64,000 nucleotides of DNA from Klebsiella phage 150049. This document shows, piece after piece, positions 16,929 to 41,602 of the stretch. The notes under the pieces were generated by a model. It was not told the DNA's origin. It was given only the letters and a program-made list of their open reading frames with translations, and made no database searches. The position numbers and the translations under genes are program-made. The DNA is taken from the sequence record OP045498.1. One strand, given 5' to 3'. Numbering within the stretch: position 1 is the first letter of the stretch; the number at the start of each line of letters is the position of its first letter.

Positions 16929-16935
16929 ATTTTAT

Positions 16936-17154: not shown

Positions 17155-17173
17155 ATTATTTCCTTAATTTGTT

Positions 17174-17249: not shown

Positions 17250-17254
17250 GAATT

Positions 17255-17328
17255 TGGTGGAGAAAGAGGGAGTTGAACCCTCGTCTTCTGCGTGCAAAGC
17301 AGATGTTCTACCATTAAACTATATCCCC
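17255..17328 (-). tRNA. tRNA-Ala (TGC), second copy
   Basis: G3-U70, anticodon arm TCTGC-TTTGCAC-GCAGA; one acceptor mismatch. Confidence 0.5.
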
Positions 17329-17339
17329 AAAATCTTTTA

Positions 17340-17650: not shown

Positions 17651-17677
17651 CTAGGCAGCTATTTTCACATCAATTTA

Positions 17678-17713
17678 TATAAATATTATAACAAGAAATT
17701 AAGCATCAAGCAA
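17678..17713 (-). promoter_or_regulatory. T5-type early promoter driving ncRNA/tRNA sub-cluster
   Basis: -10 17685..17690, -35 17708..17713. Confidence 0.6.
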
Positions 17714-18065
17714 GTACATTTTTAGCAATTTCTTGTAGTTCCTTAACGTCACTAACGAAAAGGTAGTCAGAGCTTCCAGAGTGCATACTCTGCATAACCA
17801 CACCACCATCCGGTGCATCTTCTTTCAAAGTAATACCTAACCAGAACTCGGCAAAACTAGGTGTTACCTCACCTTGACTTGCCTTGAACACATCGCCTTC
17901 TGTAATCTCTTGACCAGTGGAGAGTCCCATGTATGGTACGTTCAGATCAATATCTTTGTAGAATTCAGCTAGATCTTGCTCGAAATCCCAACCTTTAGAG
18001 ATAGCGAACTCCATTGTTACATGACCGAAATAGCCTTGAACCTTGCTTGATAATTGCATTTGCAA
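17706..18065 (-). CDS. hypothetical protein (119 aa)
   Basis: ORF track. Confidence 0.55.
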   Translation of the reverse strand: MQMQLSSKVQGYFGHVTMEFAISKGWDFEQDLAEFYKDIDLNVPYMGLSTGQEITEGDVFKASQGEVTPSFAEFWLGITLKEDAPDGGVVMQSMHSGSSDYLFVSDVKELQEIAKNVLA

Positions 18066-18084
18066 TTCCTTATTTTGAGTTAAT

Positions 18085-18158
18085 TGGTACTCGGTGATAG
18101 AATCGAACTATCGCAACCGCCGTGTAAAGACGGGGTTCTCCCATTAAACTAACCGAGC
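18085..18158 (-). tRNA. tRNA-Val (TAC)
   Basis: anticodon arm CCGTC-TTTACAC-GGCGG, T-arm GATAG-TTCGATT-CTATC. Confidence 0.7.
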
Positions 18159-18291
18159 AAAAGACGTCCTATAATATAGGCTTCAACTACAAATTCACAG
18201 AAACCTGCTAAAAACATACCTATTGTAAAATCGGCAGAGAATACATAGGAATCTTTTATTTTCTGCTTCATTAAGTAAAACCAGATAGTCA

Positions 18292-18609
18292 TTAAAATCT
18301 CTCCATTCTAAAGCCAATGAAGTAAGGTGCATTACATGGAACATGCTTAAGATCTTTAAGAGTAATTTTACGTCCTAAGCGTCGTTCCATACAAGTGAAA
18401 CATAGAACAATATCTTTGGGCTGCTCTTTTCTTATCTGATCCCAGACCCAATCTTCAACCATACACATTTCATGGTATTGTTCACAGTCTCGACAATAAT
18501 GTCGCTGATGTTCTGGTACTTTTTGATTTTTAATACACAGTTCAGTAAAGCGTTTTCCGGCTCTGCCAGACATTTCTGATATTGTTTCTAGAACTTTGTT
18601 AATATTCAT
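18292..18609 (-). CDS. Cys-rich hypothetical protein (105 aa)
   Basis: ORF track; CRDC, CFTC pairs. Confidence 0.5.
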   Translation of the reverse strand: MNINKVLETISEMSGRAGKRFTELCIKNQKVPEHQRHYCRDCEQYHEMCMVEDWVWDQIRKEQPKDIVLCFTCMERRLGRKITLKDLKHVPCNAPYFIGFRMERF

Positions 18610-18626
18610 AACAAATTCCTTTAAAT

Positions 18627-18705
18627 TGGTAGACCGCCTGGGACTCGAACCCAGAACCTTCCGGTTAAAAGCCGGGTGCTGCTAAACCAATTGAGCTAGC
18701 GATCT
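18627..18705 (-). tRNA. tRNA-Lys (TTT)
   Basis: loop CTTTTAA, T-arm CTGGG-TTCGAGT-CCCAG. Confidence 0.65.
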
Positions 18706-18707
18706 AT

Positions 18708-18872
18708 TTAGTACATATATACTTCTTTAATAGAGTAGACTTTTAAGTAAGGATGATTAATACCAAATTCCGCCATCACTTCGTTTTCATCTTTACCGTA
18801 ATGGGCTAGTGGATACTTCTTACGATCTTTGCTAGAACGTAGATCACTTACTTTTAAACGAAATAATTTCAT
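18708..18872 (-). CDS. small ORF (54 aa)
   Basis: ATG 18872, MKLFRLKVSDLRSSKDRKKYP... Confidence 0.3.
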   Translation of the reverse strand: MKLFRLKVSDLRSSKDRKKYPLAHYGKDENEVMAEFGINHPYLKVYSIKEVYMY

Positions 18873-18893
18873 TTCGAAATCCTTCTATTAAAT

Positions 18894-18971
18894 TGGAAGC
18901 GGGTGTAGGAATCGAACCTACCTCTTTCTAGCTTATGAGACTAGCGATCTCTACCAGAGATCTAACCCGCA
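18894..18971 (-). tRNA. tRNA with CAT anticodon and unpaired 1:72 position (initiator-like feature)
   Basis: loop CTCATAA, T-arm GTAGG-TTCGATT-CCTAC, discriminator U. Confidence 0.55.
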
Positions 18972-18977
18972 ATTGTT

Positions 18978-19055
18978 TGGTCTCCGTGGGAGGATTTGAA
19001 CCCCCGACCCTACCGCCCCAAACGGAACGCTCTGGCCAAACTGAGCTACACGGAG
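18978..19055 (-). tRNA. tRNA-Pro (TGG)
   Basis: C1-G72 pair, loop TTTGGGG, perfect acceptor CTCCGTG/CACGGAG. Confidence 0.7.
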
Positions 19056-19080
19056 AATATTCTTTGTTAACTCACTTTAT

Positions 19081-19116
19081 AAAATATATTATACAGATAT
19101 TTAAGCATAATAGCAA
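19081..19116 (-). promoter_or_regulatory. T5-type early promoter
   Basis: -10 19088..19093, -35 19111..19116 TTGCTA. Confidence 0.6.
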
Positions 19117-19135
19117 ATGAGTTTTTAATAAATTT

Positions 19136-19365
19136 ACTTATTGCGTAGGCCACCTCACGCTTCAAACGCTCTGCTGACAAAGAAGTTTGCGAGACTTCTC
19201 TTAAATGCCAGAATAGACCCGCCGATCTATCGGAACCTACTCAATAAGTAAACTTTCGTTTACCTACACCTACCTGGTCGGGAGGATTTTCAGCGACTAG
19301 AACCGGCCGGAAACTCATCGCCTTGTTTATCTAGGAGTCCGTTCTCTAGGAAGCAGAAACCTAAA
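19136..19365 (-). ncRNA. candidate stable non-coding RNA (~230 nt)
   Basis: ORF-free, GC-rich relative to flanks, upstream of promoter 19081..19116 and downstream of tRNA-Gly. Confidence 0.3.
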
Positions 19366-19367
19366 TT

Positions 19368-19441
19368 TGGTGCGGTCGGAGGGAATCGAACCCTCAACTT
19401 TTGGTTGGCAACCAAAAATTATACCTTTTAACTACGAACGC
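19368..19441 (-). tRNA. tRNA-Gly (GCC)
   Basis: anticodon arm TTTGG-TTGCCAA-CCAAA, T-arm GAGGG-TTCGATT-CCCTC. Confidence 0.65.
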
Positions 19442-19644
19442 ATAATAAGTCAATCTAGGCAGGACTTGAACCTGCTATCACTTGTGCGGATTTACGAGAA
19501 CCATTCTTTCACTCGAATCGAACGAGCTTCTACCCTCGGCAAGCTGGTGTCCCCTCTCCACCACGCTAGAATGTTTGTTAATGAATAGAGTCCGGTGTAG
19601 CAGTCCGTAAGGGTGCACCTACTGTAGCCTTTACTCTATTTGTT

Positions 19645-19721
19645 TGGTACTCCCAGAAGGACTTGAACCTTCAACCCTCCGCTTAAGAGGCGGTAGCTCT
19701 GACCAGTTGAGCTATGGAAGC
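19645..19721 (-). tRNA. tRNA-Lys (CTT)
   Basis: loop CTCTTAA, T-arm GAAGG-TTCAAGT-CCTTC. Confidence 0.5.
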
Positions 19722-19722
19722 A

Positions 19723-19956
19723 TTAAATCTCTTTTAAGAAATCTTTAGGAATAGTAAAACTAGGATAATCACCTGTTTCGTCTAATGTTACACTTGTATG
19801 CTCTATTCCAGTATATCGAGTATCATCTGAGGCTAAACCATAATCATGAAATTTCAATGAGTATACAGTTTGTCCTGCATGTTCACCTTTAATAACTAAA
19901 TATTTGCGTGTCATACTATATCCTAAATTGGCGCGACCGATGGGATTCGAACCCAC
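19723..19956 (-). CDS. hypothetical protein (77 aa)
   Basis: ORF track; abuts tRNA. Confidence 0.45.
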   Translation of the reverse strand: MGSNPIGRANLGYSMTRKYLVIKGEHAGQTVYSLKFHDYGLASDDTRYTGIEHTSVTLDETGDYPSFTIPKDFLKEI

Positions 19957-20005
19957 ATTCTCTCCCGTGACAGGGGAGTACCATTACCAAGCCAGCCCCG
20001 ATCGC
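19929..20005 (-). tRNA. tRNA-Asp (GTC)
   Basis: anticodon arm CTCCC-CTGTCAC-GGGAG, discriminator G. Confidence 0.7.
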
Positions 20006-20014
20006 ATAATTTGT

Positions 20015-20200
20015 TTACTCAGCTTTGAGTTTTTTGATAGCTTCCTCAACCTCTTTTAGAGCTTCACGACGCTCTACTTGACCTTGAAGTTCTTCAAGAA
20101 GTTCAGCTTTCAGAGCCTTAATAATATTACCACGAACCTTAATATTATTAATTAGATTATCACGATCAGCTTCTAGTCGAGCAATTGCACGAGTTGTCAT
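20015..20200 (-). CDS. small coiled-coil protein (61 aa)
   Basis: ORF track. Confidence 0.4.
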   Translation of the reverse strand: MTTRAIARLEADRDNLINNIKVRGNIIKALKAELLEELQGQVERREALKEVEEAIKKLKAE

Positions 20201-20302
20201 ATCTATTTCCTCAGTTATTAATGAAAATGGTATCTGTGACTGAATTCGATATCAGTAATGATAGCTGGTTGGCTACCGGTTTACTTAACTCTACACAGAA
20301 TA

Positions 20303-20385
20303 TGGCGGGCCGTGTAGGATTCGAACCTACGTTGTCTTTCGACATGGATTAACAGTCCACCGCCAAACCGCTTGGCTAACGACCC
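20303..20385 (-). tRNA. tRNA with Asn anticodon arm (GTT) but 13-nt variable arm and 3-bp D-stem (class-II-like body)
   Basis: GGA-CTGTTAA-TCC arm and G73 like tRNA-Asn; 83 nt. Confidence 0.5.
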
Positions 20386-20392
20386 TAAAATT

Positions 20393-20468
20393 TGGACGAC
20401 CGCATGAGATTCGAACTCACATAAGGAGGTTTTGCAGGCCTCCGCCTAAGCCATTCAGCCAACGGTCG
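20393..20468 (-). tRNA. tRNA-Cys (GCA)
   Basis: loop CTGCAAA, discriminator U, T-arm GTGAG-TTCGAAT-CTCAT. Confidence 0.65.
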
Positions 20469-20646
20469 ATTTATCTTGCTTTTCGAGATTAGTAAACTCT
20501 AGATCTTTAGAATGTCCTATAGATCTAGCATAATAGCCATCTCCAGCATCATAGCCTGACTTACCACACTCACACATCTTAAACTCTCTATAACGAGTGA
20601 AAATATGTTCAGAACCACAACACTTAAATTTAACTAACATTTTCAT
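20455..20646 (-). CDS. small zinc-ribbon protein (63 aa)
   Basis: CCGSEH..CECG; 3' end overlaps tRNA-Cys 5' end. Confidence 0.35.
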   Translation of the reverse strand: MKMLVKFKCCGSEHIFTRYREFKMCECGKSGYDAGDGYYARSIGHSKDLEFTNLEKQDKSTVG

Positions 20647-20885
20647 TTAACACGCTCCGGTAAATCTTCGAGTTTATATTGAGTAGCCACATTAGCAGCA
20701 TCTAGTAACAAACCCATATGTTTAAGAATCCTAGTGATAGCCTCGCCTTCTGCTTCTTCTACAAAAGTGCGTAGTTGAATGAAGTCAATACCACCATCCA
20801 TACCAGAGAAAATGTTAAGTAAGCGAAGCATTACCAGCTTACGTTCTTTCAGTTCTTGTTCTGTCATGTTGCTTCTCCAGTTCAA
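20643..20885 (-). CDS. hypothetical protein (80 aa)
   Basis: ORF track. Confidence 0.5.
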   Translation of the reverse strand: MNWRSNMTEQELKERKLVMLRLLNIFSGMDGGIDFIQLRTFVEEAEGEAITRILKHMGLLLDAANVATQYKLEDLPERVK

Positions 20886-20889
20886 TTTA

Positions 20890-20925
20890 TGTAATAATTA
20901 TACAGAACTTTAAGCGGTTAAGCAA
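20890..20925 (-). promoter_or_regulatory. T5-type early promoter
   Basis: -10 20897..20902, -35 20920..20925. Confidence 0.6.
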
Positions 20926-21205
20926 CTACATTTTTCAGAAATATGATGCCTTTCTTTTTCTTCTTATACTTCCACGTTAATGGATTCTGTCTATTATGAA
21001 CGCTTGAGATCTTTGTCTCGTCAAAGTTCTTCAATACCATGTAATCACAGGCCAACTGTTCTAGTGGGATGTGATCTCCGTCAAAAGCATAAACATAAGG
21101 TTGTTGACTAGCACGATAATGATAGACTTTGTTAATTCTACGTTTCAGTGACTTATCCGCACAGTAAATAAAGAAGTTTTCAGGATGCATCAGCATCTCC
21201 TTCAA
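20918..21205 (-). CDS. hypothetical protein (95 aa)
   Basis: ORF track; C-terminus overlaps promoter block. Confidence 0.45.
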   Translation of the reverse strand: MKEMLMHPENFFIYCADKSLKRRINKVYHYRASQQPYVYAFDGDHIPLEQLACDYMVLKNFDETKISSVHNRQNPLTWKYKKKKKGIIFLKNVVA

Positions 21206-21207
21206 AT

Positions 21208-21282
21208 TGGTGCACCCTGTTCGTATCGAACGAACCTCTCAAGCTCTTCAGGCAAGCGCTAATCCATCTCAGCTAAAGGTGC
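21208..21282 (-). tRNA. tRNA-Phe (GAA)
   Basis: loop CTGAAGA, T-arm GTTCG-TTCGATA-CGAAC; weak anticodon stem. Confidence 0.5.
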
Positions 21283-21288
21283 AAATAT

Positions 21289-21365
21289 TGGCAAACCTAC
21301 TAGGACTCGAACCTAGACCGTACGGTTTTGGAGACCGACATGCTGTCCAGTAACACTCTAGGAAT
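21289..21365 (-). tRNA. tRNA-Trp (CCA), acceptor stem not cleanly resolved
   Basis: anticodon arm CGGT-CTCCAAA-ACCG like E. coli Trp, G73, T-arm CTAGG-TTCGAGT-CCTAG. Confidence 0.45.
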
Positions 21366-21373
21366 GCAGAAAT

Positions 21374-21450
21374 TGGCGTCCTGTGCGGGGATCGAACCCG
21401 CAAATCCTACCTTGAAAGGGTAGTGACTTTACCAGTTTGTCTAACAGGAC
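21374..21450 (-). tRNA. tRNA-Glu (TTC)
   Basis: GTCCTGT..loop CTTTCAA..ACAGGACGCCA. Confidence 0.75.
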
Positions 21451-21457
21451 TTAAATT

Positions 21458-21548
21458 TGGTGTTGGATGATGGAGTCGAACCACCCGAGACCCTTCCGAG
21501 TCGGCAGATTTACAGTCTGCTTCGCTACCTCTACGATACTAATCCAAC
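21458..21548 (-). tRNA. tRNA-Tyr (GTA), class II
   Basis: 91 nt, anticodon arm GCAGA-CTGTAAA-TCTGC, perfect acceptor. Confidence 0.75.
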
Positions 21549-21605
21549 ATATTTAGAAATATTCAAATACTAGTTTAAACACTTTTAAATATGTTTTCCA
21601 AATTA

Positions 21606-21666
21606 GATAACTATTATATCAAGTTTTGAAGGACTGAGCAAGTCAAATTTTAAAGAACTTGCTCAG
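21606..21666 (-). promoter_or_regulatory. variant early promoter (-10 21613..21618, -35 TTGCTC 21636..21641) overlapped by a perfect 10-bp inverted repeat CTGAGCAAGT / ACTTGCTCAG
   Basis: IR arms 21634..21643 and 21657..21666. Confidence 0.4.
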
Positions 21667-21677
21667 TGCTATATCAG

Positions 21678-21953
21678 TTACTCGAAGCTAGGAGTGACAC
21701 TCAGTTTGAATGGAAGCTCGAACACTTCTTCATAATCATCATTGAGCGTAATTACACGACCTTCTAGCTTAGTCATGGTGATTTCGATATCAGCCTTTGC
21801 ATCAGGAGCCATACCAGCTTCCACACATTTAGCTTTGACTTCCGGCAGAAGTTCTACATCGTAGAAATAAAGCCATTCAATCTCACCTTCCCAGCCACCC
21901 CAGGATTTACAAACAGCACTTTCAACACCAGTTGCAGTAACACGTTTTGACAT
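21678..21953 (-). CDS. hypothetical protein (91 aa)
   Basis: ORF track. Confidence 0.5.
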   Translation of the reverse strand: MSKRVTATGVESAVCKSWGGWEGEIEWLYFYDVELLPEVKAKCVEAGMAPDAKADIEITMTKLEGRVITLNDDYEEVFELPFKLSVTPSFE

Positions 21954-21976
21954 TCGTTAACTCCTTCATCAATTTA

Positions 21977-22013
21977 TATAACTATTATAGCAGAAATCTT
22001 AAGTAAAAAGCAA
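21977..22013 (-). promoter_or_regulatory. T5-type early promoter
   Basis: -10 21984..21989, -35 22008..22013. Confidence 0.6.
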
Positions 22014-22043
22014 GTACATTTTTAAAATTTCTGCTTGGAGGAG

Positions 22044-22250
22044 TTAAACTCCTGATTCTTCTGCCAGATCAAGCCCAACCAATGTGATTGCCATAATAGC
22101 CGCGCCATGTTCTTTCTCTCCTAGCTCTTTGGCTTGAGTGAGAATATTGAGGAATTGCTTCTGAAAATCTGCAACTTCTTCTGTCATGCCTGCTTCAGCA
22201 ATAATTCCTTTCAGCATAAAGCGTTGTGCCGTAATTTCAGGATTAGCCAT
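22044..22250 (-). CDS. hypothetical protein (68 aa)
   Basis: ORF track. Confidence 0.45.
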   Translation of the reverse strand: MANPEITAQRFMLKGIIAEAGMTEEVADFQKQFLNILTQAKELGEKEHGAAIMAITLVGLDLAEESGV

Positions 22251-22401
22251 TTATTATCTCCAGTTATTTAGAATGTAAGCCAAACTTAGGATCATAGCGA
22301 TCGTAAGTCGTACCATTAGTTGAAGCCTTGATGCTATGAAAACGACAGTACATAAATTTACGTAGTGCTTTCTTAATAGCTTTCATTTTATTTCCTTAAT
22401 T

Positions 22402-22478
22402 TGGTAGGGGTGGTGGGATTCGAACCCACAAAACCTGAATTTTAAGTCCAGTACCTATGCCAATTCGATTACACCCCC
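22402..22478 (-). tRNA. tRNA-Leu (TAA) with short variable arm (class-I-like)
   Basis: loop CTTAAAA, A73, T-arm GTGGG-TTCGAAT-CCCAC. Confidence 0.5.
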
Positions 22479-22486
22479 ATGTAATC

Positions 22487-22840
22487 TTAGCGAATCTCTA
22501 AACCCTGGAAATATCGAGGGAATGGAGAGCCAACTTCAAAATTGATGCCCCAGTTAAGTTCAACGAGTTCAGATTTATTAAGATCTAGGCCATTACCTTC
22601 AAAGATATAGCCGTAAACCGCAGGGAACATAGCTGCTAGATCTTCCATATCGGAATGAGCATTGTGTTCTTCACGGAACTGCTCAAACTCTTCAAAGAAC
22701 TTTTCTAGGAAAAACTCAGGTACGATGAACGTTACCACATCAGTAGAATCATCGGTACGATACACCGTAGCTTGGAACAAGCCAACACCTAAAAGGTTTA
22801 TTGCCGGAGTAGTAAAAATATCCATCTTAGCCTCTCTCAA
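22487..22840 (-). CDS. hypothetical protein (117 aa)
   Basis: ORF track. Confidence 0.5.
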   Translation of the reverse strand: MREAKMDIFTTPAINLLGVGLFQATVYRTDDSTDVVTFIVPEFFLEKFFEEFEQFREEHNAHSDMEDLAAMFPAVYGYIFEGNGLDLNKSELVELNWGINFEVGSPFPRYFQGLEIR

Positions 22841-23012
22841 TGTCTAGACAAATTGCATATTCAGGGTTGATACCAGTACCTTTACATGTAGGACATTCCC
22901 ATTCTCTACAGAAAATATCCCCAGGCTCTGCATCATCCTGCCTACCACCACCATGACAGTCCTTACACCGACATTCTTCTAATGCTTTCTTCATTTCATA
23001 GAATCTAGACAT
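22827..23012 (-). CDS. small zinc-finger protein (61 aa)
   Basis: CKDC..CPTC. Confidence 0.45.
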   Translation of the reverse strand: MSRFYEMKKALEECRCKDCHGGGRQDDAEPGDIFCREWECPTCKGTGINPEYAICLDIERG

Positions 23013-23038
23013 ATAGTCTCCTAGTTAATTGGTGGCTC

Positions 23039-23116
23039 CCGGAGGATTCGAACCTACCTACCTTTCGCTTATGAGGCGACGGCTCATACCAAATGAGCTT
23101 GAGAACCAAATTTGGA
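23039..23116 (-). tRNA. tRNA with CAT anticodon (third CAT tRNA)
   Basis: loop CTCATAA, D-arm GCTC-ATTTGGTAT-GAGC. Confidence 0.55.
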
Positions 23117-23121
23117 GGAAG

Positions 23122-23215
23122 ATGCCAGACTCGAACTGGCACACCGTGTCTCCACAGCTACTGGCTGTTTAGCAAACAGCTCCCTTACCTTTAGGGTTAA
23201 TCTTCCAAATTTATG
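23122..23215 (-). tRNA. tRNA-Ser (GCT), class II
   Basis: 94 nt, anticodon arm GCTGT-TTGCTAA-ACAGC, perfect acceptor. Confidence 0.7.
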
Positions 23216-27287: not shown

Positions 27288-27299
27288 ACCAAAAAACAA

Positions 27300-27336
27300 A
27301 AGCCCCTGCCGAAAGGTAAGGGGCTTTTTCTTTTGC
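27300..27336 (+). terminator. rho-independent terminator (AGCCCCTGCC..GGGGCT plus TTTTCTTTT)
   Basis: hairpin 27301..27325. Confidence 0.7.
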
Positions 27337-27339
27337 CTT

Positions 27340-27380
27340 AAATACAGAAAAGCCCGCGCTCTCGAAGGAAACGCGGGCTT
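27340..27380 (-). terminator. rho-independent terminator for SPFH operon (AGCCCGCG..CGCGGGCT plus T-run on minus strand)
   Basis: hairpin 27351..27379. Confidence 0.65.
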
Positions 27381-27403
27381 GGTTCGAAGATTACGTGTAA
27401 CTA

Positions 27404-28348
27404 TTACTTGTTACGCATATCCATGATCATTTGACCATCGTAGCCAGTACCGACAACAGTCTGTGGTACACCACCTTGGTATTTTTCAGCACGAAGCATT
27501 TCAACTTCCAGCTGCTTCCAACGAATCATTTCAGGAGTAATGGTACGTTGCAGAGCGGCGTTAGCTTCAGCTTCTTTCTTAGCTGCGTACAGTTTAGCAT
27601 CTGCGTCACGTTCGTTAGCTACTGCCATGTTTTCACGAGCGGAACGATCTGCCTCAGCTTGCTTAACTTTCTGCTGTGCTTCTTGTTCAACACGAGCCAG
27701 TTCAGCTTTTGCAGCGTTAACTTGTTCTTCACGAACTTTGGTGTTCTGTACCTGTTCCATGATTACCGGTGGCAGAGTAATATCCTGAAGGAATACTTGC
27801 TTAACGGTGTAACCATAAGGACGCGCATACTCTTCTACTTCTTGCTGAATAGCGGTTTGCAGTTGAGCCTGAATCTTAGCGTCGAACAGATCTTGTGCTT
27901 TTGGTACAGACTTACCAAACTCACGAATCGTAGACAGCATCTTCTCTTCAACGTACTTGTTCAGAGCTTGATCCTGAGTACCTGCGTTAACACGGTTCAT
28001 AGGAGCTTTAGCACCATCAAACTGCAACATAACGGTAATGTCAACAGTAGACTTAAACTTATCCTGGCTAGGAACCTGAAGTTTATCCAGTTTCATGGAA
28101 ATATCTTTCGTACTAAAAGTATCAAAAGAAGCAAATGGGTTAACAATATGGAAGCCTGGCAGTACAGGGTTCGGGCTAACTTTACCCAGGAAGGTTTGAG
28201 TCTTAACAGTACCATCCTGAACAACTGTGTAGGAATTGAGAGCCAGAATAAGAGCGCCAAGACCAACTACAGCACCAACACCCCAACGTTTAATAGTACG
28301 AATTACTTTTTGATCGGAAGTCAGTTCTTTAGTGTTTTTAGTAAACAT
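27404..28348 (-). CDS. SPFH/band-7 (stomatin/prohibitin/HflK-like) membrane protein (314 aa)
   Basis: N-terminal TM, SPFH core then long E/A/Q/K-rich coiled coil. Confidence 0.7.
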   Translation of the reverse strand: MFTKNTKELTSDQKVIRTIKRWGVGAVVGLGALILALNSYTVVQDGTVKTQTFLGKVSPNPVLPGFHIVNPFASFDTFSTKDISMKLDKLQVPSQDKFKSTVDITVMLQFDGAKAPMNRVNAGTQDQALNKYVEEKMLSTIREFGKSVPKAQDLFDAKIQAQLQTAIQQEVEEYARPYGYTVKQVFLQDITLPPVIMEQVQNTKVREEQVNAAKAELARVEQEAQQKVKQAEADRSARENMAVANERDADAKLYAAKKEAEANAALQRTITPEMIRWKQLEVEMLRAEKYQGGVPQTVVGTGYDGQMIMDMRNK

Positions 28349-28359
28349 ATATTTCCTTA

Positions 28360-28560
28360 TTATTTAGAAGAGTTAGCTACTACAGTTACTTTAGTTGCAG
28401 AAATAAACAGGCTAGCATCCACAGCAAATTCAGGAGCTTTGATATCTCCGTTATGAAATATGACTATACCGGAGACTACTTCAAATGCTAGCGCTGTAAC
28501 ATCGGTGGTATTTACTTGTGAATGTTCACCTACTACTTTTACTATATATCGTGTTTTCAC
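28360..28560 (-). CDS. NfeD-like short beta-barrel protein (66 aa), partner of SPFH
   Basis: beta-rich YIVKVVGEHSQV..GIVIFHNGDIKAP; positioned immediately upstream of SPFH gene. Confidence 0.4.
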   Translation of the reverse strand: MKTRYIVKVVGEHSQVNTTDVTALAFEVVSGIVIFHNGDIKAPEFAVDASLFISATKVTVVANSSK

Positions 28561-28586
28561 TTTATTTTCCTAGCAGTTAATAAAAT

Positions 28587-28661
28587 TGGCCGAGGTGACA
28601 GGATTCGAACCTGCATAAAGGAATTTAGAAGACTCCTGCCTATCCCTTAGACTACACCCCG
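28587..28661 (-). tRNA. tRNA-Arg (TCT)
   Basis: anticodon arm GGAGT-CTTCTAA-ATTCC, T-arm GCAGG-TTCGAAT-CCTGT, CCA encoded. Confidence 0.65.
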
Positions 28662-29750
28662 TTTAGGTATTTTTAAGAACTCTTATAAAAGCTCTTAAAG
28701 ATACCCGACGGTAGGTAGGGTCAGCCCCCTCAGATTAAGCTCTGCAGCCCTTCCGTCAGACAATATCTTCCAGTTTAAGTCAGGGTGACTTTGTGGTTAT
28801 GTTCTCCGTATGTGAAGAACTCGGTTAGGCTTAGGTCATGACTCCCAGCCTACTGCTGCCGCTCAACAGGAATTATCGCGAATTACCTGTACTATTGGGC
28901 ACCATTAGTGCCATCTCTCATGTCAGCGTTTCCCACTCTCATATTCACGCGGTCTGTTAGAATCGCACCTCCGATTTTCGATGCGAAGCTGGATGCCTAG
29001 TCTCAGGTTAAACGGGGCACACACTAGGCAGTGATCCCGAGTTCCGAGTTTGGTTGAGGCCGTCAGGTTTCCTCGTGGTTTAGCTGTTTCGATTCTAACC
29101 TAATACTGATCAGGTGGCGTACCTCCTGAACCGTCATAGTATGTACTCCAGCAGCGAATGCTTATCCGGTATAAGCCCGAGTTATCCGATTCTTTCCAGA
29201 AGGAGCAGTAAAGCTCAATGTCAGCCTGTGAGCATCTGGCAGTGTTATCACATAAGTCAGTTCGACACCCCACATTTTAGTGCCTGGTAGATCCCGAATG
29301 AAGCCCTCAGTCGTTAGACCTCCATCATTCATCAAAGATTTACGCTACCCACTATTCGATGGACAATCGCCGCATTGTGGTATACATACGTTTTCACTTG
29401 CATCCTAGACGGGTCAGCGTTGAAAGTTATATGGGTTTCTCAAGCCCAACCTTCAGTCTTCTACCCCTGGGACACGCACCGTATTTCACACTGTGCCTAG
29501 CTCCTGTTGAGACCCATCGTTTTGTATAAATTAGAGAAGAGTTTAGAGGAGAGGTTTCAGACGCCTCATTTTACAAGAAGTCTCGAACCTATATTCGTTA
29601 CTCTAGTCACTTGGCCGGATATACCGGACTGGACTCGGAACTCTAACAGGTGATCATTCTTAACCCACCGACTCTATTCAGTGTCAGAAGCTATCACTAG
29701 GTGAATCGCTAAAGCTCACTCAGCGTAATCGGCTCGCTGTTCTCTAATTT
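28662..29750 (-). ncRNA. candidate large (~1.1 kb) structured non-coding RNA
   Basis: ORF track shows no ORF of 60 aa or more on any of six frames between 28566 and 29795; GC-enriched; transcribed from promoter 29752..29787 into tRNA-Arg and SPFH operon. Confidence 0.4.
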
Positions 29751-29751
29751 A

Positions 29752-29787
29752 TGAATCTATTATACAGAATTTTGGAACGTTTAGCAA
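29752..29787 (-). promoter_or_regulatory. T5-type early promoter driving the large non-coding segment
   Basis: -10 29759..29764, -35 TTGCTA 29782..29787. Confidence 0.6.
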
Positions 29788-29795
29788 ATCAATTT

Positions 29796-30239
29796 TTAAT
29801 TAAATTCGCCAGCAACCTGAGCAGCAATGCCACCATCGTAACGACCAGGAAACTCTTCCTTAATCGCTTTCATCAGCATACCCTTTGTAATCCCAGGATT
29901 CAACTTAACTAATTCTGCAAAGTATTTGCGAATCTCAGAATCAGATAACTGAGGCGGCAGATACTGTTGTAGCCATTTGTTCAGTATATATTCATACTGA
30001 GCAGACTGCAAGCTATAATTATCAAGGTCTTGACCGTGAAGTTTAGCTTTTGTCTGATTAATGCTTTTCAGTTGAGCTTTTAGATAAGATACAAACTGTT
30101 CAGAAGTAATGAAGTCTTTATCAACACGCTGAAGATCTCCGATTATAGTCTGGTAGCTTTTAGCTACTTCTTTATCAGAACCATCAACCTTAGATTCCTG
30201 CAAAGCCCTACGCAAAACATCTAGAATATTCTCTTCCAT
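29796..30239 (-). CDS. hypothetical protein (147 aa)
   Basis: ORF track. Confidence 0.55.
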   Translation of the reverse strand: MEENILDVLRRALQESKVDGSDKEVAKSYQTIIGDLQRVDKDFITSEQFVSYLKAQLKSINQTKAKLHGQDLDNYSLQSAQYEYILNKWLQQYLPPQLSDSEIRKYFAELVKLNPGITKGMLMKAIKEEFPGRYDGGIAAQVAGEFN

Positions 30240-30477: not shown

Positions 30478-30945
30478 TTAAGTTTTCTTAACCACAGGCT
30501 TGTAGAACGTATGGCCTTGAATCTTCGTTGTTTTCTTAAACTTCTTTGTCCAGTACGGTTTATCTTTACCACTATGGAAGTATAACGCTCCATGTGTTGG
30601 ATCTTGTGGTAAATCAACGTAGTATATCACTCTAGCTAAATTCTTAGCAACTTGCCAAGCCTCATCGGTTTTATCAACTTTTGGTCTCTTGGCCACCCAA
30701 GAGAACTGGTTAGACTGATATACTACTTTACAGTAAGAATCAGGAAAAGTACCAGAGTTAACACGGTTTTTAGTAACCTGTGCAACTGCGATCATTCCTT
30801 TAGTGCCCTCACCTCGTGCTTCGAAGTAGATATTTTTTGCAATGCAATCAATCTGCTTTGAGTCGTAGGTCGCATGACTATTGAAGCTATAGGTTAGGGC
30901 AGCTATTAAAAGCAAAGCTGCCTTCATTTTATTTACTCCGGCCAA
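30478..30945 (-). CDS. secreted cell-wall hydrolase, SleB/CwlJ (Hydrolase_2) family (155 aa)
   Basis: signal peptide; NIYFEARGEG motif characteristic of SleB-like hydrolases. Confidence 0.6.
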   Translation of the reverse strand: MAGVNKMKAALLLIAALTYSFNSHATYDSKQIDCIAKNIYFEARGEGTKGMIAVAQVTKNRVNSGTFPDSYCKVVYQSNQFSWVAKRPKVDKTDEAWQVAKNLARVIYYVDLPQDPTHGALYFHSGKDKPYWTKKFKKTTKIQGHTFYKPVVKKT

Positions 30946-31250
30946 TCGTACTCAATACGATTAGGGCTTTCTTGATACCCTTCGTCTAAGAGATCATTAC
31001 GCATGGTCTCTTTAGCTACTGGGTTCGAGGTTACTAGTACCACTTTCTTGGGTCTCTGACCAAATTCTAGGAGTAAACGAAGAATTTGATAACCTTCCAT
31101 ACCATCTACAGCCAGATCGTTATCCATATAAACGAAATGACCTGTGGTATCGGTTTTATTCAGAAACTCAACAGCGGCTTCTGGGGTTCGAATGATAATA
31201 TCCATCCCATGCAGGTCACGAACATCATCAATCAGAATATGAAAAATCAT
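30933..31250 (-). CDS. hypothetical protein (105 aa), weak receiver-domain-like pattern
   Basis: ORF track. Confidence 0.45.
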   Translation of the reverse strand: MIFHILIDDVRDLHGMDIIIRTPEAAVEFLNKTDTTGHFVYMDNDLAVDGMEGYQILRLLLEFGQRPKKVVLVTSNPVAKETMRNDLLDEGYQESPNRIEYDWPE

Positions 31251-39271: not shown

Positions 39272-41602
39272 TTACAGGTTACAACCACCTGATGCACAAC
39301 CTGCTGCTTCTTCACCAGCTCCACCACCATTTTCAGTGTTGAAGTTAGCGTAGTACCAAGTTTTCCAGCCGTACTTAACAGCAGTCATGAAATCACGAAC
39401 TACTACTGGACCAGGAATGATTTCATTCTCAAACTTGGTGTAGTCATAGTACATATTCGTACTGATAGACTGACTGAAGAATTTCTGCATGGTTGCTACC
39501 CATTTGATCCACTCGATACGATCTACATCATAAGCCAGTTTATAACTCATTAATGTATCCCAATCGGTTGCACCTGGAGCAATTGCAATTACTTTATTCA
39601 CTGCACTACCCTTGATAGATACAATCTTACGAGGCGGCTCGATAGAGTTAGTAACACCTAGCAGTACAGAGGAACTTTCACCCGGCATCTGAGCAGTCAG
39701 AACAGAGTTGCGCATACCATATTTCAGAATATCTGCACGTAGAGATTCCCAATCCATTTCTAGACCTACAGTTACCAGTTCATCAACAGTTTTCTTGTAC
39801 GTGTCGATTACCAGAGTTCCTTTGGATGGTTTAGTACGATTAAACCAGTCACATGCACCTTGTTCTTTAGCCAGACGTACAGAGGCTTTGTGCAGGAAGT
39901 AGGACAGCTTTTCAGCTTCACGGTGAATCCAGTTACGGGCTTCAACACCTTCGTAAGCCAAACCTTCTGCTGCCATTGCACCTGCCGCGTTCATCAGACC
40001 AATACCAACGTTACGACGTTTCTTAGCCGTGTATTCCATGGTTGGGAATGGGTAGTCCTGAATCTCGATGATTGTATCAACGAATTTCAGAAGGATGTAG
40101 CAAGTTTTCTCCCATTCAGCTAGAGATTCCATGCGACCTAGTACAACACCACCTAAGTTACACAAAGATACTTCACCAATATCTTCTGGACGCATATCGT
40201 CTAACTGATCTTGGGTCTTATACAGTTCCGTAATGTGATGGAATGGACGGGTTGGCTGAGTAATTTCAACACAAAGGTTGGTCATACGAATCGGGTCAAG
40301 GAAGTTACCATGACGGTTAGATTCACCAATGTGATGAGCATACATACGCCCTGTTTCCATACGGATACGTAACCAAGTATCTAGGATTTCTTTTGCAGAG
40401 ATTCTAGGAGCTGCTGGAATTGTTTTTCCTTCGTGGTCGATCTTTGTAAGAGATGCCACACGTTTCTCCGCTGCCACGTAGATTTCTTCAAACTTAGCCT
40501 CATCTTCACCATAAAACGCTTCATGAACTTCTGGTGCGTAGAAGTAGGACATTAGCGTAATATCTTCGTTTTTCAGGTAACGTTTTAACAGAAGGTTGTT
40601 AAAGCTCAGAGAATAATCCATCTTATCGATTTTATTCTCGTCTGTAGCACGTTGCTGCTTAACCTGCATCAACTGAATGATTTCAGGATCGAAGTATGGA
40701 TAAGACACAGTAGCAGAACCGCCACGGGTTTGCTGAGTGTTAGCTTTTACTGAACGGTCAATGTGTCGATAATATGGCAGTTTTCCGGAATGCGGGAATG
40801 CCCCATTTCGCACCGGATCAGCAATTGATCGGCTTTCAAGATGATACCCGATTCCCGCTCTGGCTGCGACCATTTTGAAGACGATATGCTCGGCTGTGTC
40901 GATTGAATCGAGGGTATCAGTACTATCAACAAGACAACAAGAAGCAAAACCGCGGTCACTAGAGCGCAGGCCAACCAGTGGCGGCGTAGGAACGTTGATT
41001 TTGTGGAGCGACATTGCATTGTAGAGGTCGATTGCATCTAGAATTGTCCAGTTAGGTTGAGATAACATCGCCATTGCCATACCCATGTAGGCAAACTGCG
41101 GGGTTTCATAAATTTCACCAGTTGCAATATTACGACGGGAATACTTGTCGAAGAACTGTTTCAGTCCACCACTGGTGAATAAACGATCACGATCATGATC
41201 AATAACTTGATTAAGAGCTTCAAATTGTTCATCGGTAATCCATGCACTCATGTCTTCCCAAGCTCCAACACTAACCATATGATCGTGGAAGAAACGCAGA
41301 GAAGGAGGCTCGAAGGAATCATATAGACGTTTACGCATCTGCGCAAGACGTAATTCCTTAGCCGGCACGTCATATGCTGGGTTATCTTTGATAAGACCTT
41401 CAGCGGCTTTAATTAACGCATCCATTAGGGTGTCGGAGTCTACAACACCTTTAGGTAGAGTTTTTTGAGCAGCCATAGTGATGGATGACCAGCTTACATC
41501 AACTGTTTTGCAGCCATACACTGCCCAACCATTGAGTTTTTCAGGAGCAAAGTCTTCTACAGTACCGTCACGTTTAATTACTTTTTCTATGCGATGGCTC
41601 AT
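39272..41602 (-). CDS. nrdA: ribonucleotide reductase class Ia alpha subunit (776 aa from MSHRIEK)
   Basis: ATP-cone VIKRDG, catalytic Cys/Asn/Glu region, C-terminal CxxC..CN; RBS AAAGGAAAG before ATG 41602. Confidence 0.9.
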   Translation of the reverse strand: MSHRIEKVIKRDGTVEDFAPEKLNGWAVYGCKTVDVSWSSITMAAQKTLPKGVVDSDTLMDALIKAAEGLIKDNPAYDVPAKELRLAQMRKRLYDSFEPPSLRFFHDHMVSVGAWEDMSAWITDEQFEALNQVIDHDRDRLFTSGGLKQFFDKYSRRNIATGEIYETPQFAYMGMAMAMLSQPNWTILDAIDLYNAMSLHKINVPTPPLVGLRSSDRGFASCCLVDSTDTLDSIDTAEHIVFKMVAARAGIGYHLESRSIADPVRNGAFPHSGKLPYYRHIDRSVKANTQQTRGGSATVSYPYFDPEIIQLMQVKQQRATDENKIDKMDYSLSFNNLLLKRYLKNEDITLMSYFYAPEVHEAFYGEDEAKFEEIYVAAEKRVASLTKIDHEGKTIPAAPRISAKEILDTWLRIRMETGRMYAHHIGESNRHGNFLDPIRMTNLCVEITQPTRPFHHITELYKTQDQLDDMRPEDIGEVSLCNLGGVVLGRMESLAEWEKTCYILLKFVDTIIEIQDYPFPTMEYTAKKRRNVGIGLMNAAGAMAAEGLAYEGVEARNWIHREAEKLSYFLHKASVRLAKEQGACDWFNRTKPSKGTLVIDTYKKTVDELVTVGLEMDWESLRADILKYGMRNSVLTAQMPGESSSVLLGVTNSIEPPRKIVSIKGSAVNKVIAIAPGATDWDTLMSYKLAYDVDRIEWIKWVATMQKFFSQSISTNMYYDYTKFENEIIPGPVVVRDFMTAVKYGWKTWYYANFNTENGGGAGEEAAGCASGGCNL

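What the first reader, a model, noticed from the sequence alone, without database searches (positions are those of the whole stretch)
28662..29750. About 1.1 kb GC-enriched segment with no ORF over 59 aa, transcribed into tRNA-Arg and an NfeD/SPFH operon
In a phage that otherwise packs genes tightly with 1-8 nt overlaps, the ORF track shows no ORF of 60 aa or more on any of the six frames between 28566 and 29795. Base composition of this stretch is visibly GC-richer than the flanking AT-rich sequence, which is the usual signature of structured RNA in AT-rich genomes. It lies directly downstream of a consensus early promoter (29752..29787) and is co-oriented with tRNA-Arg(UCU), an NfeD-like gene and an SPFH gene, ending at a bona fide terminator (27340..27380). 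Large ornate RNAs such as GOLLD and ROOL are characteristically phage-borne and adjacent to tRNA genes. An internal element around 29530..29575 (TGTATAAATTAGAGAAGAGTTTAGAGGAGAGG) also resembles the plus-strand promoter/leader module, hinting at antisense transcription. This could be a novel large ncRNA, or a decayed gene remnant.
Basis: partly seen in the sequence, partly recalled or inferred. Interest (0 to 1): 0.8.

Follow-up and report, generated by a model that had tools for sequence, protein, structure and literature searches.

The report
EPS7 copy of T5 RNAX
The 1.1 kb gene-free stretch encodes a large, intricately folded non-coding RNA, the phage EPS7 version of the barely studied "RNAX" stable RNA of phage T5, which nearly all sampled T5-like phages carry next to their tRNA genes and whose function is unknown.

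Summary
Window 28561-29795 is the longest stretch without an ORF of 60 aa or more (1235 nt; the next is 551 nt). Its GC content is 0.469, the 98th percentile. It lies between a strong sigma-70 promoter and tRNA-Arg(UCU).

The window is phage EPS7. The syntenic stretch in T5 and DT57C is annotated in GenBank as "rnaX: stable RNA with unknown functions". No paper in the searchable library describes it, and Rfam 15 matches nothing here.

Alignments of alleles from about 525 T5-like phage records show a conserved, strand-specific secondary structure along the whole RNA. Pairs with compensatory changes number 24, 26 and 18, against about 10-12 in shuffles and 0-13 in slid controls.

The RNA is modular:
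- Its 5' end pairs with the "promoter-like" internal element, so that element is a helix strand, not an antisense promoter.
- A conserved block forms a long stem that carries a tRNA-like module in 446 records. EPS7 and 30 others carry a plain hairpin there.
- A conserved 3' domain ends in a 16-bp hairpin that abuts tRNA-Arg.

It is not a pseudogene, not a tRNA graveyard, and not a GOLLD or ROOL member, though it resembles them in context and layout. Function remains inferred.

The parts
29753..29795 (-). Sigma-70 promoter of the RNA. The -35 TTGCTA is at 29787-29782, the -10 TATAAT at 29764-29759, and the inferred start is A at 29752.
   Evidence: Consensus scan, 10 of 12 matches with a 17-nt spacer. 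It is homologous to the stretch annotated 'promoter P 16-17' in T5 and conserved in all alleles. The start site is inferred from spacing and from resemblance to T5 promoter PN25 (my own knowledge).
28662..29752 (-). RNAX-type structured non-coding RNA, EPS7 allele, about 1091 nt from the inferred start to the base before tRNA-Arg.
   Evidence: It is syntenic and partly alignable with the annotated rnaX of T5 and DT57C. Covarying structure is found along its length. G-U pairs make the helices specific to this strand.
29740..29752 (-). P1, 5' strand (AUAAAUUAGAGAA): the 5' end of the RNA.
   Evidence: It pairs with 29526-29538. The same helix is found in 15 alleles, with compensatory indels in KEY/AAS21 (-1/-1) and TrudiGerster (+2/+2).
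29526..29538 (-). P1, 3' strand (UUCUCUAAUUUAU).
   Evidence: No plus-strand promoter is detected here.
29539..29739 (-). 5' domain 1: about 200 nt inserted in the loop of P1. It includes the invariant hairpin CAGCG...CGCUG at 29721-29739.
   Evidence: T5-type alleles have only about 5 nt in this loop. The module is shared with Sugarlandvirus at about 71% identity. Its hairpins are swapped between lineages.
29357..29519 (-). 5' domain 2: a nested multi-helix domain closed by CGAUGG/CCAUCG.
   Evidence: The closing helix and inner helices covary, for example CGAUGG/CCAUCG with UGGUGG/CCACCA, and GAAGGUU/AACUUUC with GGGAGCU/AGCUCCC.
29274..29347 (-). Optional 74-nt module, present or absent as a block among close relatives.
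   Evidence: It is absent from SH9 (L003) and others but present in HMD-P2, NG_S8, STWB21 and TrudiGerster.
29238..29273 (-). Universal block GUGGGGUGUCGAACUGACUUAUGUGAUAACACUGCC. It is the 5' strand of a long stem, and its first four bases (GUGG) pair with CCAC at 29075-29078.
   Evidence: It is 83-100% identical in all alleles. It pairs with 29177-29190, with covariation (CUGA/UCGG with AUCA/UGGU; UGAU/AUCG with UAGU/ACUG). In DU_PP_V, GUGG/CCAC becomes ACGG/CCGU.
29196..29239 (-). Tip hairpin closed by CCAGAU/UUCUGG. It occupies the position where most alleles carry a tRNA-like module.
   Evidence: Alignments. The tRNA-like module scores 29-38 bits against the Rfam tRNA model in relatives, whereas EPS7 has no tRNA hit at E<=10. 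The hairpin variant is in 31 phage records and the tRNA-like variant in 446.
29177..29190 (-). 3' strand of the long stem (AUCGGAUAACUCGG).
28991..29176 (-). Central domain. It comprises the covarying hairpin GCUUA/UAAGC (29160-29176), variable hairpins, and a 52-nt block (29040-29091) that is 100% identical to Klebsiella phage Sugarland.
28705..28990 (-). Conserved 3' domain with invariant loops GGAGUCAUGACC, AUAACCAC and UUAAACUGGAA.
   Evidence: It is 76-80% identical to T5-type alleles. There are 74 predicted pairs, 24 with compensatory changes, and 98.3% of cells are paired. A covariance model of its core finds KEY/AAS21, 1-23, ende and Sugarland-type alleles.
28667..28704 (-). 16-bp terminal hairpin, 5 nt upstream of tRNA-Arg.
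   Evidence: It is conserved from T5 to Sugarlandvirus and to Pectobacterium phage DU_PP_V. It is retained where no tRNA-Arg follows (Sugarland).
28587..28661 (-). tRNA-Arg(UCU), co-transcribed. Cleavage at its 5' end by RNase P would define the RNA's 3' end.
   Evidence: ARAGORN and Rfam tRNA, 49.3 bits. The RNase P step is inferred from general tRNA biology.
27350..28560 (-). Rest of the transcription unit: a 66-aa ORF (28360-28560), an SPFH/Band_7 gene (27404-28348) and an intrinsic terminator (27380-27350).

Best explanation
Window 28662-29752 (minus strand) encodes the EPS7 allele of RNAX. RNAX is a large (about 0.64-1.3 kb) highly structured non-coding RNA found in almost all sampled T5-like phages (family Demerecviridae).

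Shown:
- Host-type RNA polymerase signals sit directly upstream, and no terminator lies before tRNA-Arg.
- The RNA folds into a conserved multi-domain structure.
- Its 5' end is locked in helix P1.
- A universally conserved block forms a long stem whose tip carries a tRNA-like module in most phages and a plain hairpin in EPS7.
- A conserved 3' domain ends in a 16-bp hairpin.

Inferred:
- It is made as the first part of an early transcript RNAX-tRNA-Arg-orf66-SPFH.
- RNase P cutting at the tRNA's 5' end releases it.
- Having both ends buried in helices makes it the 'stable RNA' annotated in T5.
- It acts as a free-standing RNA, not as a leader for the downstream genes.

Most likely role (speculative, about 30%): a scaffold or decoy tied to tRNA biology or anti-defence, in the manner proposed for GOLLD and ROOL.
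For: Identity and synteny:
- The region is 99.8% identical to EPS7.
- T5 (AY543070 40848-41566) and DT57C annotate the same interval, from promoter P16-17 to tRNA-Arg, as rnaX.
- Blocks shared with T5-type alleles are the promoter, the universal block (83-100%) and the 3' 276 nt (76-80%).

Structure (pairs with compensatory changes):
- 3' domain: 24 of 74 pairs, against 11.7+-1.5 in shuffles (0 of 500 as high) and 2-6 when partners are slid; 98.3% of cells paired.
- 5' domains: 26 of 79, against 12.0+-2.1 and 4-13 when slid.
- Central part: 18 of 39, against 10.3+-1.5 and 0-5 when slid.
- G-U pairs make up 9-11% of cells, so the helices fit the minus-strand transcript better than its complement.
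- P1 is present in all 15 alleles the script could test, with a loop of about 5 to 195 nt and compensatory indels.
- DU_PP_V, from a different subfamily, changes GUGG/CCAC to ACGG/CCGU and CAGCG/CGCUG to CAGCA/UGCUG.

Constraint: T5-type alleles are 94-98% identical where the adjacent yqeY-like gene is 74-81% identical.

Independence from downstream genes: a 169-aa ORF separates the RNA from tRNA-Arg in many relatives. Sugarlandvirus has it in a different gene context and still keeps the terminal hairpin.

Distribution: about 525 phage records, all T5-like. The terminal-hairpin pattern occurs in none of 185,579 bacterial and archaeal species genomes.

Signals: promoter and terminator as.
Against: - No expression data were available here. 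'Stable RNA' rests on a GenBank note for T5, and I found no paper describing it.
- Whole-molecule folding energy is not better than that of shuffles.
- The structures were derived from the same alignments on which pairs were counted, which inflates the paired percentage, and many sequences are closely related.
- Among Epseptimaviruses the region diverges faster than its flanks (85-87% against 90-100%). Taken alone, this could mean relaxed constraint rather than allele shuffling.
- The covariance model of the 3' core does not recover DU_PP_V.
- Nothing here tests function.
Confidence: 0.8

Rival explanations
1. It is a long structured 5' leader that works only in cis. It would control the processing, stability or timing of tRNA-Arg and the SPFH operon, rather than being a functional RNA in its own right.
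For: It is co-transcribed with tRNA-Arg, orf66 and SPFH, with no terminator or promoter in between. The terminal hairpin sits 5 nt from the tRNA.
Against: The downstream neighbour is not conserved. A 169-aa ORF is inserted between the RNA and the tRNA in HMD-P2, STWB21, TrudiRoth, ende, 1-23, L004 and L028. Sugarlandvirus has other genes downstream. A size of 0.64-1.3 kb and multi-domain covariation far exceed known leaders. T5 annotators recorded it as a stable RNA.
Confidence: 0.1
2. It is a graveyard of decayed tRNA genes in the phage's tRNA island, with no function of its own.
For: It lies at the edge of a 29-tRNA region. Relatives carry a tRNA-like element that annotators call tRNA-OTHER, Ser, Pro or Sec. 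Modules of about 74 nt come and go.
Against: Apart from that one element, nothing scores against the tRNA model at E<=10, and relaxed ARAGORN finds nothing convincing. The tRNA-like element sits at the tip of a covarying long stem and has a variable anticodon region, including a 19-nt insert in Sugarland. Long-range helices spanning 200-260 nt covary. T5-type alleles are more conserved than the neighbouring gene.
Confidence: 0.04
3. It is a frameshifted or decayed protein-coding gene.
For: Some annotators placed small hypothetical ORFs here. One relative has an 87-aa ORF and others have 160-176-aa ORFs in the interval.
Against: The long ORFs are separate insertions (an HNH endonuclease and a 169-aa ORF) flanking or replacing RNA modules, not homologous to EPS7's sequence. 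Small ORFs are not conserved between alleles and lie on either strand. Indels are not multiples of three, and substitutions come in base-paired couples.
Confidence: 0.02
4. It is a DNA-level element, such as a recombination or homing hotspot, a nick site or a replication signal, whose palindromes merely look like RNA helices.
For: The region is mosaic and is a target of homing-endonuclease insertions. T5 has sequence-specific nicks, and one is annotated about 1 kb away in T5.
Against: The helices contain 9-11% G-U pairs, which become A-C mismatches on the other strand. The helices are long-range and nested, not simple palindromes. A strong promoter reads straight into the region.
Confidence: 0.04

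Closest known systems
RNAX (rnaX) of bacteriophage T5 and DT57C: GenBank misc_RNA, 'stable RNA with unknown functions' (AY543070 40848-41566; NC_027356 30992-31627)
   Same: It occupies the same locus, between the early promoter downstream of the yqeY-like gene and tRNA-Arg(UCU), on the same strand. It shares the promoter, the P1 helix, the universal block, the central core motifs, the 3' domain (76-80% identical) and the terminal hairpin. Helices covary between the two types.
   Different: EPS7's RNA is about 1091 nt, against 719 and 636 nt annotated. It carries about 450 nt of extra 5' domains inserted in or after the P1 loop and a different central region. Its GC is 0.47 against 0.38. It lacks the tRNA-like module, which is replaced by a plain hairpin, as in only 31 of about 480 records. 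It is unannotated in the EPS7 records.
GOLLD RNA (Rfam RF01998)
   Same: It is a very large structured RNA of phages, encoded beside tRNA islands. It has a conserved 3' region and a variable 5' region, and tRNAs are sometimes embedded in the linker (PMC12286853). RNAX likewise has a conserved 3' domain, variable or optional 5' domains, and a tRNA-like module between them.
   Different: No covariance-model match at E<=10 in the EPS7, T5 or Sugarland alleles. The hosts differ: lytic T5-like phages of Enterobacterales rather than the prophages and phages described for GOLLD. Oligomeric cage formation is untested.
ROOL RNA (Rfam RF03087)
   Same: It is a large ornate RNA encoded in phages and prophages, often near tRNA islands, with no known protein partner and unknown function.
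   Different: No covariance-model match. The size and domain layout differ. Nanocage assembly is untested.
tRNA-like modules embedded in larger RNAs (for example tRNAs in the GOLLD linker; mascRNA in MALAT1 and viral tRNA-like structures, from my own knowledge)
   Same: Most RNAX alleles hold an element with tRNA acceptor, D and T arms (Rfam tRNA 29-38 bits; the T stem covaries) inside a larger RNA.
   Different: The anticodon region is variable or expanded and there is no CCA end, so it is unlikely to decode. It sits at the tip of a long stem. EPS7 lacks it altogether.

Membership tests
T5 RNAX (rnaX stable RNA of T5-like phages) | Locus: transcribed from the early promoter downstream of the yqeY-like gene (T5.081) towards tRNA-Arg(UCU), on the same strand | tested here: met
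   T5 and DT57C annotations. The EPS7 promoter, tRNA-Arg and yqeY-like gene are in the same order and orientation.
T5 RNAX (rnaX stable RNA of T5-like phages) | Sequence homology to the annotated T5/DT57C RNAX | tested here: met
   The match is partial. The 3' 276 nt are 76-80% identical, the universal block 83-86% and the promoter 85-87%. The remainder aligns only through shared motifs.
T5 RNAX (rnaX stable RNA of T5-like phages) | Shared secondary structure, kept by compensatory changes between T5-type and EPS7-type alleles | tested here: met
   (those alignments include T5-type, EPS7-type, KEY and Sugarland alleles). P1 is present in all types.
T5 RNAX (rnaX stable RNA of T5-like phages) | Embedded tRNA-like module (typical of the family: 446 records) | tested here: not met
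   EPS7 has a 44-nt hairpin at that position. There is no tRNA model hit at E<=10. The hairpin variant is in 31 records. I treat this as a variable module, not a disqualifier, because the enclosing stem is conserved.
T5 RNAX (rnaX stable RNA of T5-like phages) | Accumulates as a stable RNA in infected cells | not testable with these tools
   The only evidence is the GenBank note for T5. No paper or expression data were found.
GOLLD (RF01998) | Match to the family covariance model | tested here: not met
   No hit at E<=1 over 6 kb or at E<=10 on the EPS7, Sugarland and T5 alleles.
GOLLD (RF01998) | Phage-borne, next to a tRNA island; conserved 3' region and variable 5' region; tRNA sometimes in the linker | tested here: met
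   Context and layout match as described in PMC12286853, compared. This is resemblance of kind, not homology.
GOLLD / ROOL | Self-assembly into homo-oligomeric RNA cages | not testable with these tools
   This needs in vitro transcription followed by SEC, mass photometry or cryo-EM.
ROOL (RF03087), OLE, HEARO, raiA and all other Rfam 15 families | Match to the family covariance model | tested here: not met
   Inside the region, the only hits are tRNA hits to the tRNA-like module of relatives and chance-level hits.
tRNA gene or tRNA pseudogene array | Cloverleaf units detectable along the segment | tested here: not met
   ARAGORN at default and at 90% thresholds, and the Rfam tRNA model at E<=10, find only tRNA-Arg. 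At very lax thresholds the hits fall on both strands with nonsense anticodons.
Protein-coding pseudogene | Homologous intact ORF in relatives | tested here: not met
   The long ORFs in relatives are unrelated insertions.

The most novel reading that the evidence does not exclude
RNAX is a third, independent class of giant ornate phage RNA, functionally akin to GOLLD and ROOL, sitting in the classical and genetically tractable coliphage T5 family. It would act in trans early in infection in one of two ways. It could be a self-assembling scaffold. Alternatively, it could be a decoy or inhibitor that uses its tRNA-like elbow and conserved loops to engage host tRNA-processing enzymes or tRNA-targeting defence enzymes. 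The allele shuffling of its peripheral modules would then reflect an arms race.
Probability: 0.3. Interest if true: 0.85.

Novelty: new variant of a known kind. Interest (0 to 1): 0.62.

Why it matters
Large ornate RNAs encoded beside phage tRNA islands (GOLLD, ROOL) have solved structures but no known function, and their hosts are awkward to work with. RNAX shows the same context and a similar layout, with a conserved 3' domain, variable 5' domains and an embedded tRNA-like module. It is present in essentially every sampled T5-like phage of E. coli, Salmonella and Klebsiella, where deletion, complementation, defence-system panels and existing infection RNA-seq are all routine.

RNAX has no Rfam family, and most genome records leave it blank or fill it with spurious small ORFs. 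A family model would correct the annotation of hundreds of phage genomes, many of them candidates for therapy or biocontrol. Natural variants with and without the tRNA-like module (446 against 31 records) amount to a ready-made experiment on what that module does.

Tried and rejected
- Rfam 15 at permissive thresholds on four sets of sequence gave nothing but tRNA hits.
- Relaxed ARAGORN found no credible cloverleaves in EPS7.
- Whole-RNA folding energy against shuffles was not significant on either strand, so thermodynamics alone would have missed this RNA.
- Similarity to E. coli genomes found none, so it is not captured host RNA.
- The terminal-hairpin pattern in 185,579 species genomes gave no hits. 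In metagenomes it gave 9 contigs, 8 of them matching known T5-type or Sugarland-type alleles and none a new type.
- Conserved-motif scans of IMG/VR returned only T5-like contigs.
- Literature searches for RNAX, T5 stable RNAs, or structured RNAs in Tequintavirus or Epseptimavirus found no description. [quoted passage not shown]
- The deletions quoted in PMC11464382 (30661-38625 and 29191-32442) do not reach 40848-41566, if the coordinates are comparable.
- A covariance model of the 3' core recovered KEY, AAS21, 1-23, ende and Sugarland-type alleles but not DU_PP_V, even with filters off. I therefore call the DU_PP_V RNA a likely homologue on the basis of synteny and shared motifs only.
- A truncated re-alignment (A5) lost the GUGG/CCAC helix because of my cut points. 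I do not rely on its alternative pairing.
- Antisense promoter idea: rejected.
- A conserved small ORF in the sense strand (57-74 aa, starting in the universal block) is broken in alleles that carry the tRNA-like module: rejected.
Full report
**1. The observation**

- No ORF of 60 aa or more exists on any frame between 28561 and 29795.
- This 1235-nt stretch is more than twice as long as the next ORF-free stretch in the window, which is 551 nt.
- GC content is 0.469, against a window mean of 0.403. That is the 98th percentile of equal-sized windows.
- tRNA-Arg(UCU) abuts it at 28587-28661 on the minus strand.
- A near-consensus sigma-70 promoter reads into it from 29787-29759 on the minus strand. 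The next intrinsic terminator on that strand is at 27380-27350, after a 66-aa ORF and an SPFH/Band_7 gene.

- The longest internal ORF (58 aa) is no shorter than in shuffled sequence.
- The whole-molecule folding energy is ordinary (z = -1.39 sense, -0.80 antisense).

The 'NfeD' label of the 66-aa ORF has no Pfam support.

**2. What it corresponds to**

The segment is 99.8% identical to phage EPS7 (genus Epseptimavirus, family Demerecviridae), where nothing is annotated in this interval, not even the tRNA.

A more sensitive search finds related sequence in 522 phage records, all of them T5-like. In two of them, T5 (AY543070 40848-41566, 719 nt) and DT57C (636 nt), the interval between 'promoter P 16-17' and tRNA-Arg is annotated as misc_RNA rnaX, 'RNAX, stable RNA with unknown functions'.

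I found no paper in the searchable library that describes this RNA. Rfam 15 matches no family within the RNAX interval at E<=10 in the EPS7, Sugarland or T5 alleles, apart from tRNA hits on an embedded tRNA-like element of the relatives.

**3. Not a gene remnant, not a tRNA graveyard**

The interval from the yqeY-like gene to tRNA-Arg varies from 686 to 1526 nt across 27 loci.

The long ORFs seen in some relatives are insertions, not intact versions of EPS7's sequence.
- A 160-aa HNH endonuclease sits between the promoter and the conserved core in L006, mar003J3 and PRF-SP13.
- A 169-aa ORF with no Pfam match sits between the RNA's last hairpin and tRNA-Arg in L004, L028, HMD-P2, STWB21, TrudiRoth, ende and 1-23.

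The recurrent roughly 60-aa ORFs lie on the antisense strand and simply mirror nucleotide conservation.

Apart from one tRNA-like element in relatives, nothing resembles a tRNA.

**4. Evidence for a conserved RNA structure**

I aligned three overlapping parts and counted base pairs, using shuffled and slid-partner controls.

| Part (alignment) | Sequences | Pairs | Pairs with changes on both sides | Shuffles (500) | Slid partners | Cells paired |
|---|---|---|---|---|---|---|
| 3' domain, 28662-28990 (A2) | 21 | 74 | 24 | 11.7+-1.5, 0 as high | 2-6 | 98.3% |
| 5' domains, 29236-29752 (A3) | 10 | 79 | 26 | 12.0+-2.1, 0 as high | 4-13 | 93.8% |
| Central part, 28940-29273 (A4), including T5, KEY and Sugarland | 17 | 39 | 18 | 10.3+-1.5, 0 as high | 0-5 | 98.5% |

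Examples of compensatory changes:
- UGACAU/AUGUCA, UGGCAU/AUGCCA and UCACAU/AUGUGA.
- AGGC.../...GCCU and AGAC.../...GUCU.
- CGAUGG/CCAUCG and UGGUGG/CCACCA.
- In several places whole hairpins of unrelated sequence occupy the same site.

G-U pairs are 9-11% of cells, so the same helices read on the plus strand lose 8-10 points of pairing. This supports an RNA made from the minus strand.

Caveats: the structures were predicted on the same alignments, many sequences are close relatives, and the tool's controls are not probabilities.

An out-of-sample check helps. Pectobacterium phage DU_PP_V belongs to a different subfamily and aligns by BLAST over only 38 nt. It has the same locus layout. It changes CAGCG/CGCUG to CAGCA/UGCUG and the otherwise invariant GUGG/CCAC to ACGG/CCGU.

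**5. Architecture of the EPS7 RNA**

- **Start and P1.** The inferred start is A29752. The first 13 nt (29740-29752) pair with 29526-29538 to form helix P1. This helix exists in all 15 alleles in which the script located the promoter and universal block. In T5-type RNAs the two strands are about 5 nt apart, whereas in EPS7 about 195-200 nt (domain 1) are inserted in the loop. KEY/AAS21 and TrudiGerster carry matched -1/-1 and +2/+2 indels on the two strands.
- **The 'promoter-like' element.** It resembles the promoter's transcribed leader because it is its complement. No plus-strand promoter is detected there.
- **Domain 2** (29357-29519) is a nested set of covarying helices.
- **Optional module.** A 74-nt module (29274-29347) is present or absent as a unit.
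- **Universal block** (29238-29273) is 83-100% identical everywhere. It forms a 12-bp stem with 29177-29190, and its first four bases pair with CCAC at 29075-29078.
- **Tip of that stem.** Most phages carry a tRNA-like module there (Rfam tRNA 29-38 bits). Its T stem covaries, its anticodon region is variable and is expanded by 19 nt in Sugarland, and it has no CCA end. EPS7 instead has a 44-nt hairpin (29196-29239) closed by a different helix.
- **Frequency of the two variants.** The tRNA-like variant occurs in 446 phage records and the hairpin variant in 31.
- **Central domain** contains a 52-nt block that is 100% identical to Klebsiella phage Sugarland.
- **3' domain** (28705-28990) has invariant loops GGAGUCAUGACC, AUAACCAC and UUAAACUGGAA.
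- **Terminal hairpin.** A 16-bp hairpin (28667-28704) ends 5 nt before the tRNA. It is kept even where no tRNA follows.

**6. Evolutionary pattern**
- T5-type alleles are 94-98% identical between phages whose adjacent yqeY-like gene is only 74-81% identical at the nucleotide level.
- Among Epseptimaviruses whose flanking genes are 90-100% identical (96-100% for HMD-P2 and NG_S8), full-length alleles are only 85-87% identical, and peripheral modules are exchanged as blocks.
- The picture is a conserved core with shuffled peripheral modules and nearby homing-endonuclease insertions.
- The terminal-hairpin pattern occurs in none of 185,579 species-representative bacterial and archaeal genomes. 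It occurs in 9 metagenome contigs, 8 of which match T5-type or Sugarland-type alleles.
- A covariance model of the 3' core recovers KEY and AAS21 (89.6 bits), 1-23 (42.5), ende (25) and Sugarland-type alleles (about 21 bits, E about 3e-5), but not DU_PP_V.

**7. How it most likely works**

Shown:
- A strong promoter sits directly upstream, and no terminator lies before the tRNA.
- The fold is conserved and strand-specific.
- Both termini lie in helices.
- The RNA is independent of what lies downstream.

Inferred from general knowledge of tRNA processing and RNA decay:
- RNase P cleavage at the 5' end of tRNA-Arg releases the RNA.
- The sequestered 5' end (P1) and the terminal hairpin protect it, which explains why T5 annotators listed it as a stable RNA.

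The function is not known. My best guess, at about 30%, is a trans-acting scaffold or decoy linked to tRNA biology or anti-defence. The grounds are:
- the tRNA-elbow module in most alleles;
- the position in the tRNA island, which in T5 is known to supply anti-defence tRNAs (PMC11464382; PMC11555353);
- neighbouring genes with a cyclic-phosphate-processing receiver domain and a weak YqeY match;
- the arms-race-like module shuffling.

A purely cis-acting leader role is the main rival, at about 10%.

**8. Comparison with known families**

The RNA is a member of the RNAX family by locus, partial sequence homology and shared covarying structure. It is an atypical member: about 370-450 nt longer, GC-richer and without the tRNA-like module.

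It works like, or at least looks like, GOLLD and ROOL. Those are phage-encoded, near tRNA islands, very large and of unknown function. GOLLD in particular has a conserved 3' region, a variable 5' region and tRNAs sometimes embedded in its linker (PMC12286853). Membership in either family fails the covariance-model test.

**9. Verdict**

This is a real feature and a real structured RNA. It is not categorically new, because T5's RNAX was annotated two decades ago. However, it is effectively uncharacterised and absent from Rfam, it is left blank or filled with spurious small ORFs in most of the records examined, and EPS7 carries a distinct variant.

Its value is that it puts a GOLLD/ROOL-like puzzle into a tractable coliphage system, with natural variants that have or lack the tRNA-like module.

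Noticed in passing
window 13963-23206 (minus strand): A dense island of 28 tRNA genes, all on the minus strand. It includes duplicated anticodons (two tRNA-Ala UGC, three CAU) and several unusually long predictions (tRNA-Asn 83 nt, tRNA-Leu 81 nt). RNAX and tRNA-Arg lie about 5 kb beyond its end.
   Followed up: no
L006 3988-4470; L040 (mar003J3) 3107-3589; L038 (PRF-SP13) 3073-3552: In some relatives a 160-aa HNH_3 endonuclease gene (Pfam 1.2e-11) sits between the RNAX promoter and the universal block, in place of the 5' domains. There the conserved RNA core would be the 3' part of an mRNA.
   Followed up: partly
L004 4833-5342; L028; L029 977-1486; L031; L032; L036; L037: A conserved 169-aa ORF with no Pfam match is inserted between the RNAX terminal hairpin and tRNA-Arg in many Epseptimaviruses. 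It is absent from EPS7 and T5.
   Followed up: partly
It is absent from T5 and DT57C, where the tRNA is followed directly by the SPFH-like gene.
   Followed up: partly
window 30933-31250 and 29796-30239 (minus strand): Upstream neighbours are a 105-aa protein with a cyclic-phosphate processing receiver domain (cREC_REC, 8.4e-15) and a 147-aa protein with a sub-threshold YqeY match (25.4 bits against a cutoff of 27). Annotators variously call the latter tRNA amidotransferase or recombination exonuclease. Both suggest an RNA- or tRNA-related neighbourhood.
   Followed up: partly
window 28923 and 28911: EPS7 has an A-G mismatch in a hairpin (UGACAU/AUGGCA) that covaries cleanly in relatives (A-U or G-C). 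TrudiRoth, 98.5% identical over the 3' domain, has the paired version. This is either a recent mutation or a sequencing error.
   Followed up: no
window 27290-27390: Two back-to-back GC-rich hairpins with U/A runs form a bidirectional terminator between the convergent SPFH gene and the plus-strand ORFs. The equivalent site in T5 is annotated 'efficient bidirectional rho-independent transcription terminator', with a major DNA nick site nearby.
   Followed up: no
window 30478-30945 compared with NC_010583 44525-44974: The cell-wall hydrolase ORF is intact (155 aa) in the window but split into two 'endolysin' CDS in the EPS7 RefSeq record. The window therefore differs from, or corrects, that record here.
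   Followed up: no
L074 (Pectobacterium phage DU_PP_V) 2998-4028: A different subfamily (Mccorquodalevirinae) has a 1031-nt ORF-free interval with the same layout: promoter, P1, universal block, a tRNA-like pseudo-tRNA, the GGAGUCAUGACC loop, the terminal hairpin and tRNA-Arg. The sequence is almost entirely diverged.
   Followed up: partly
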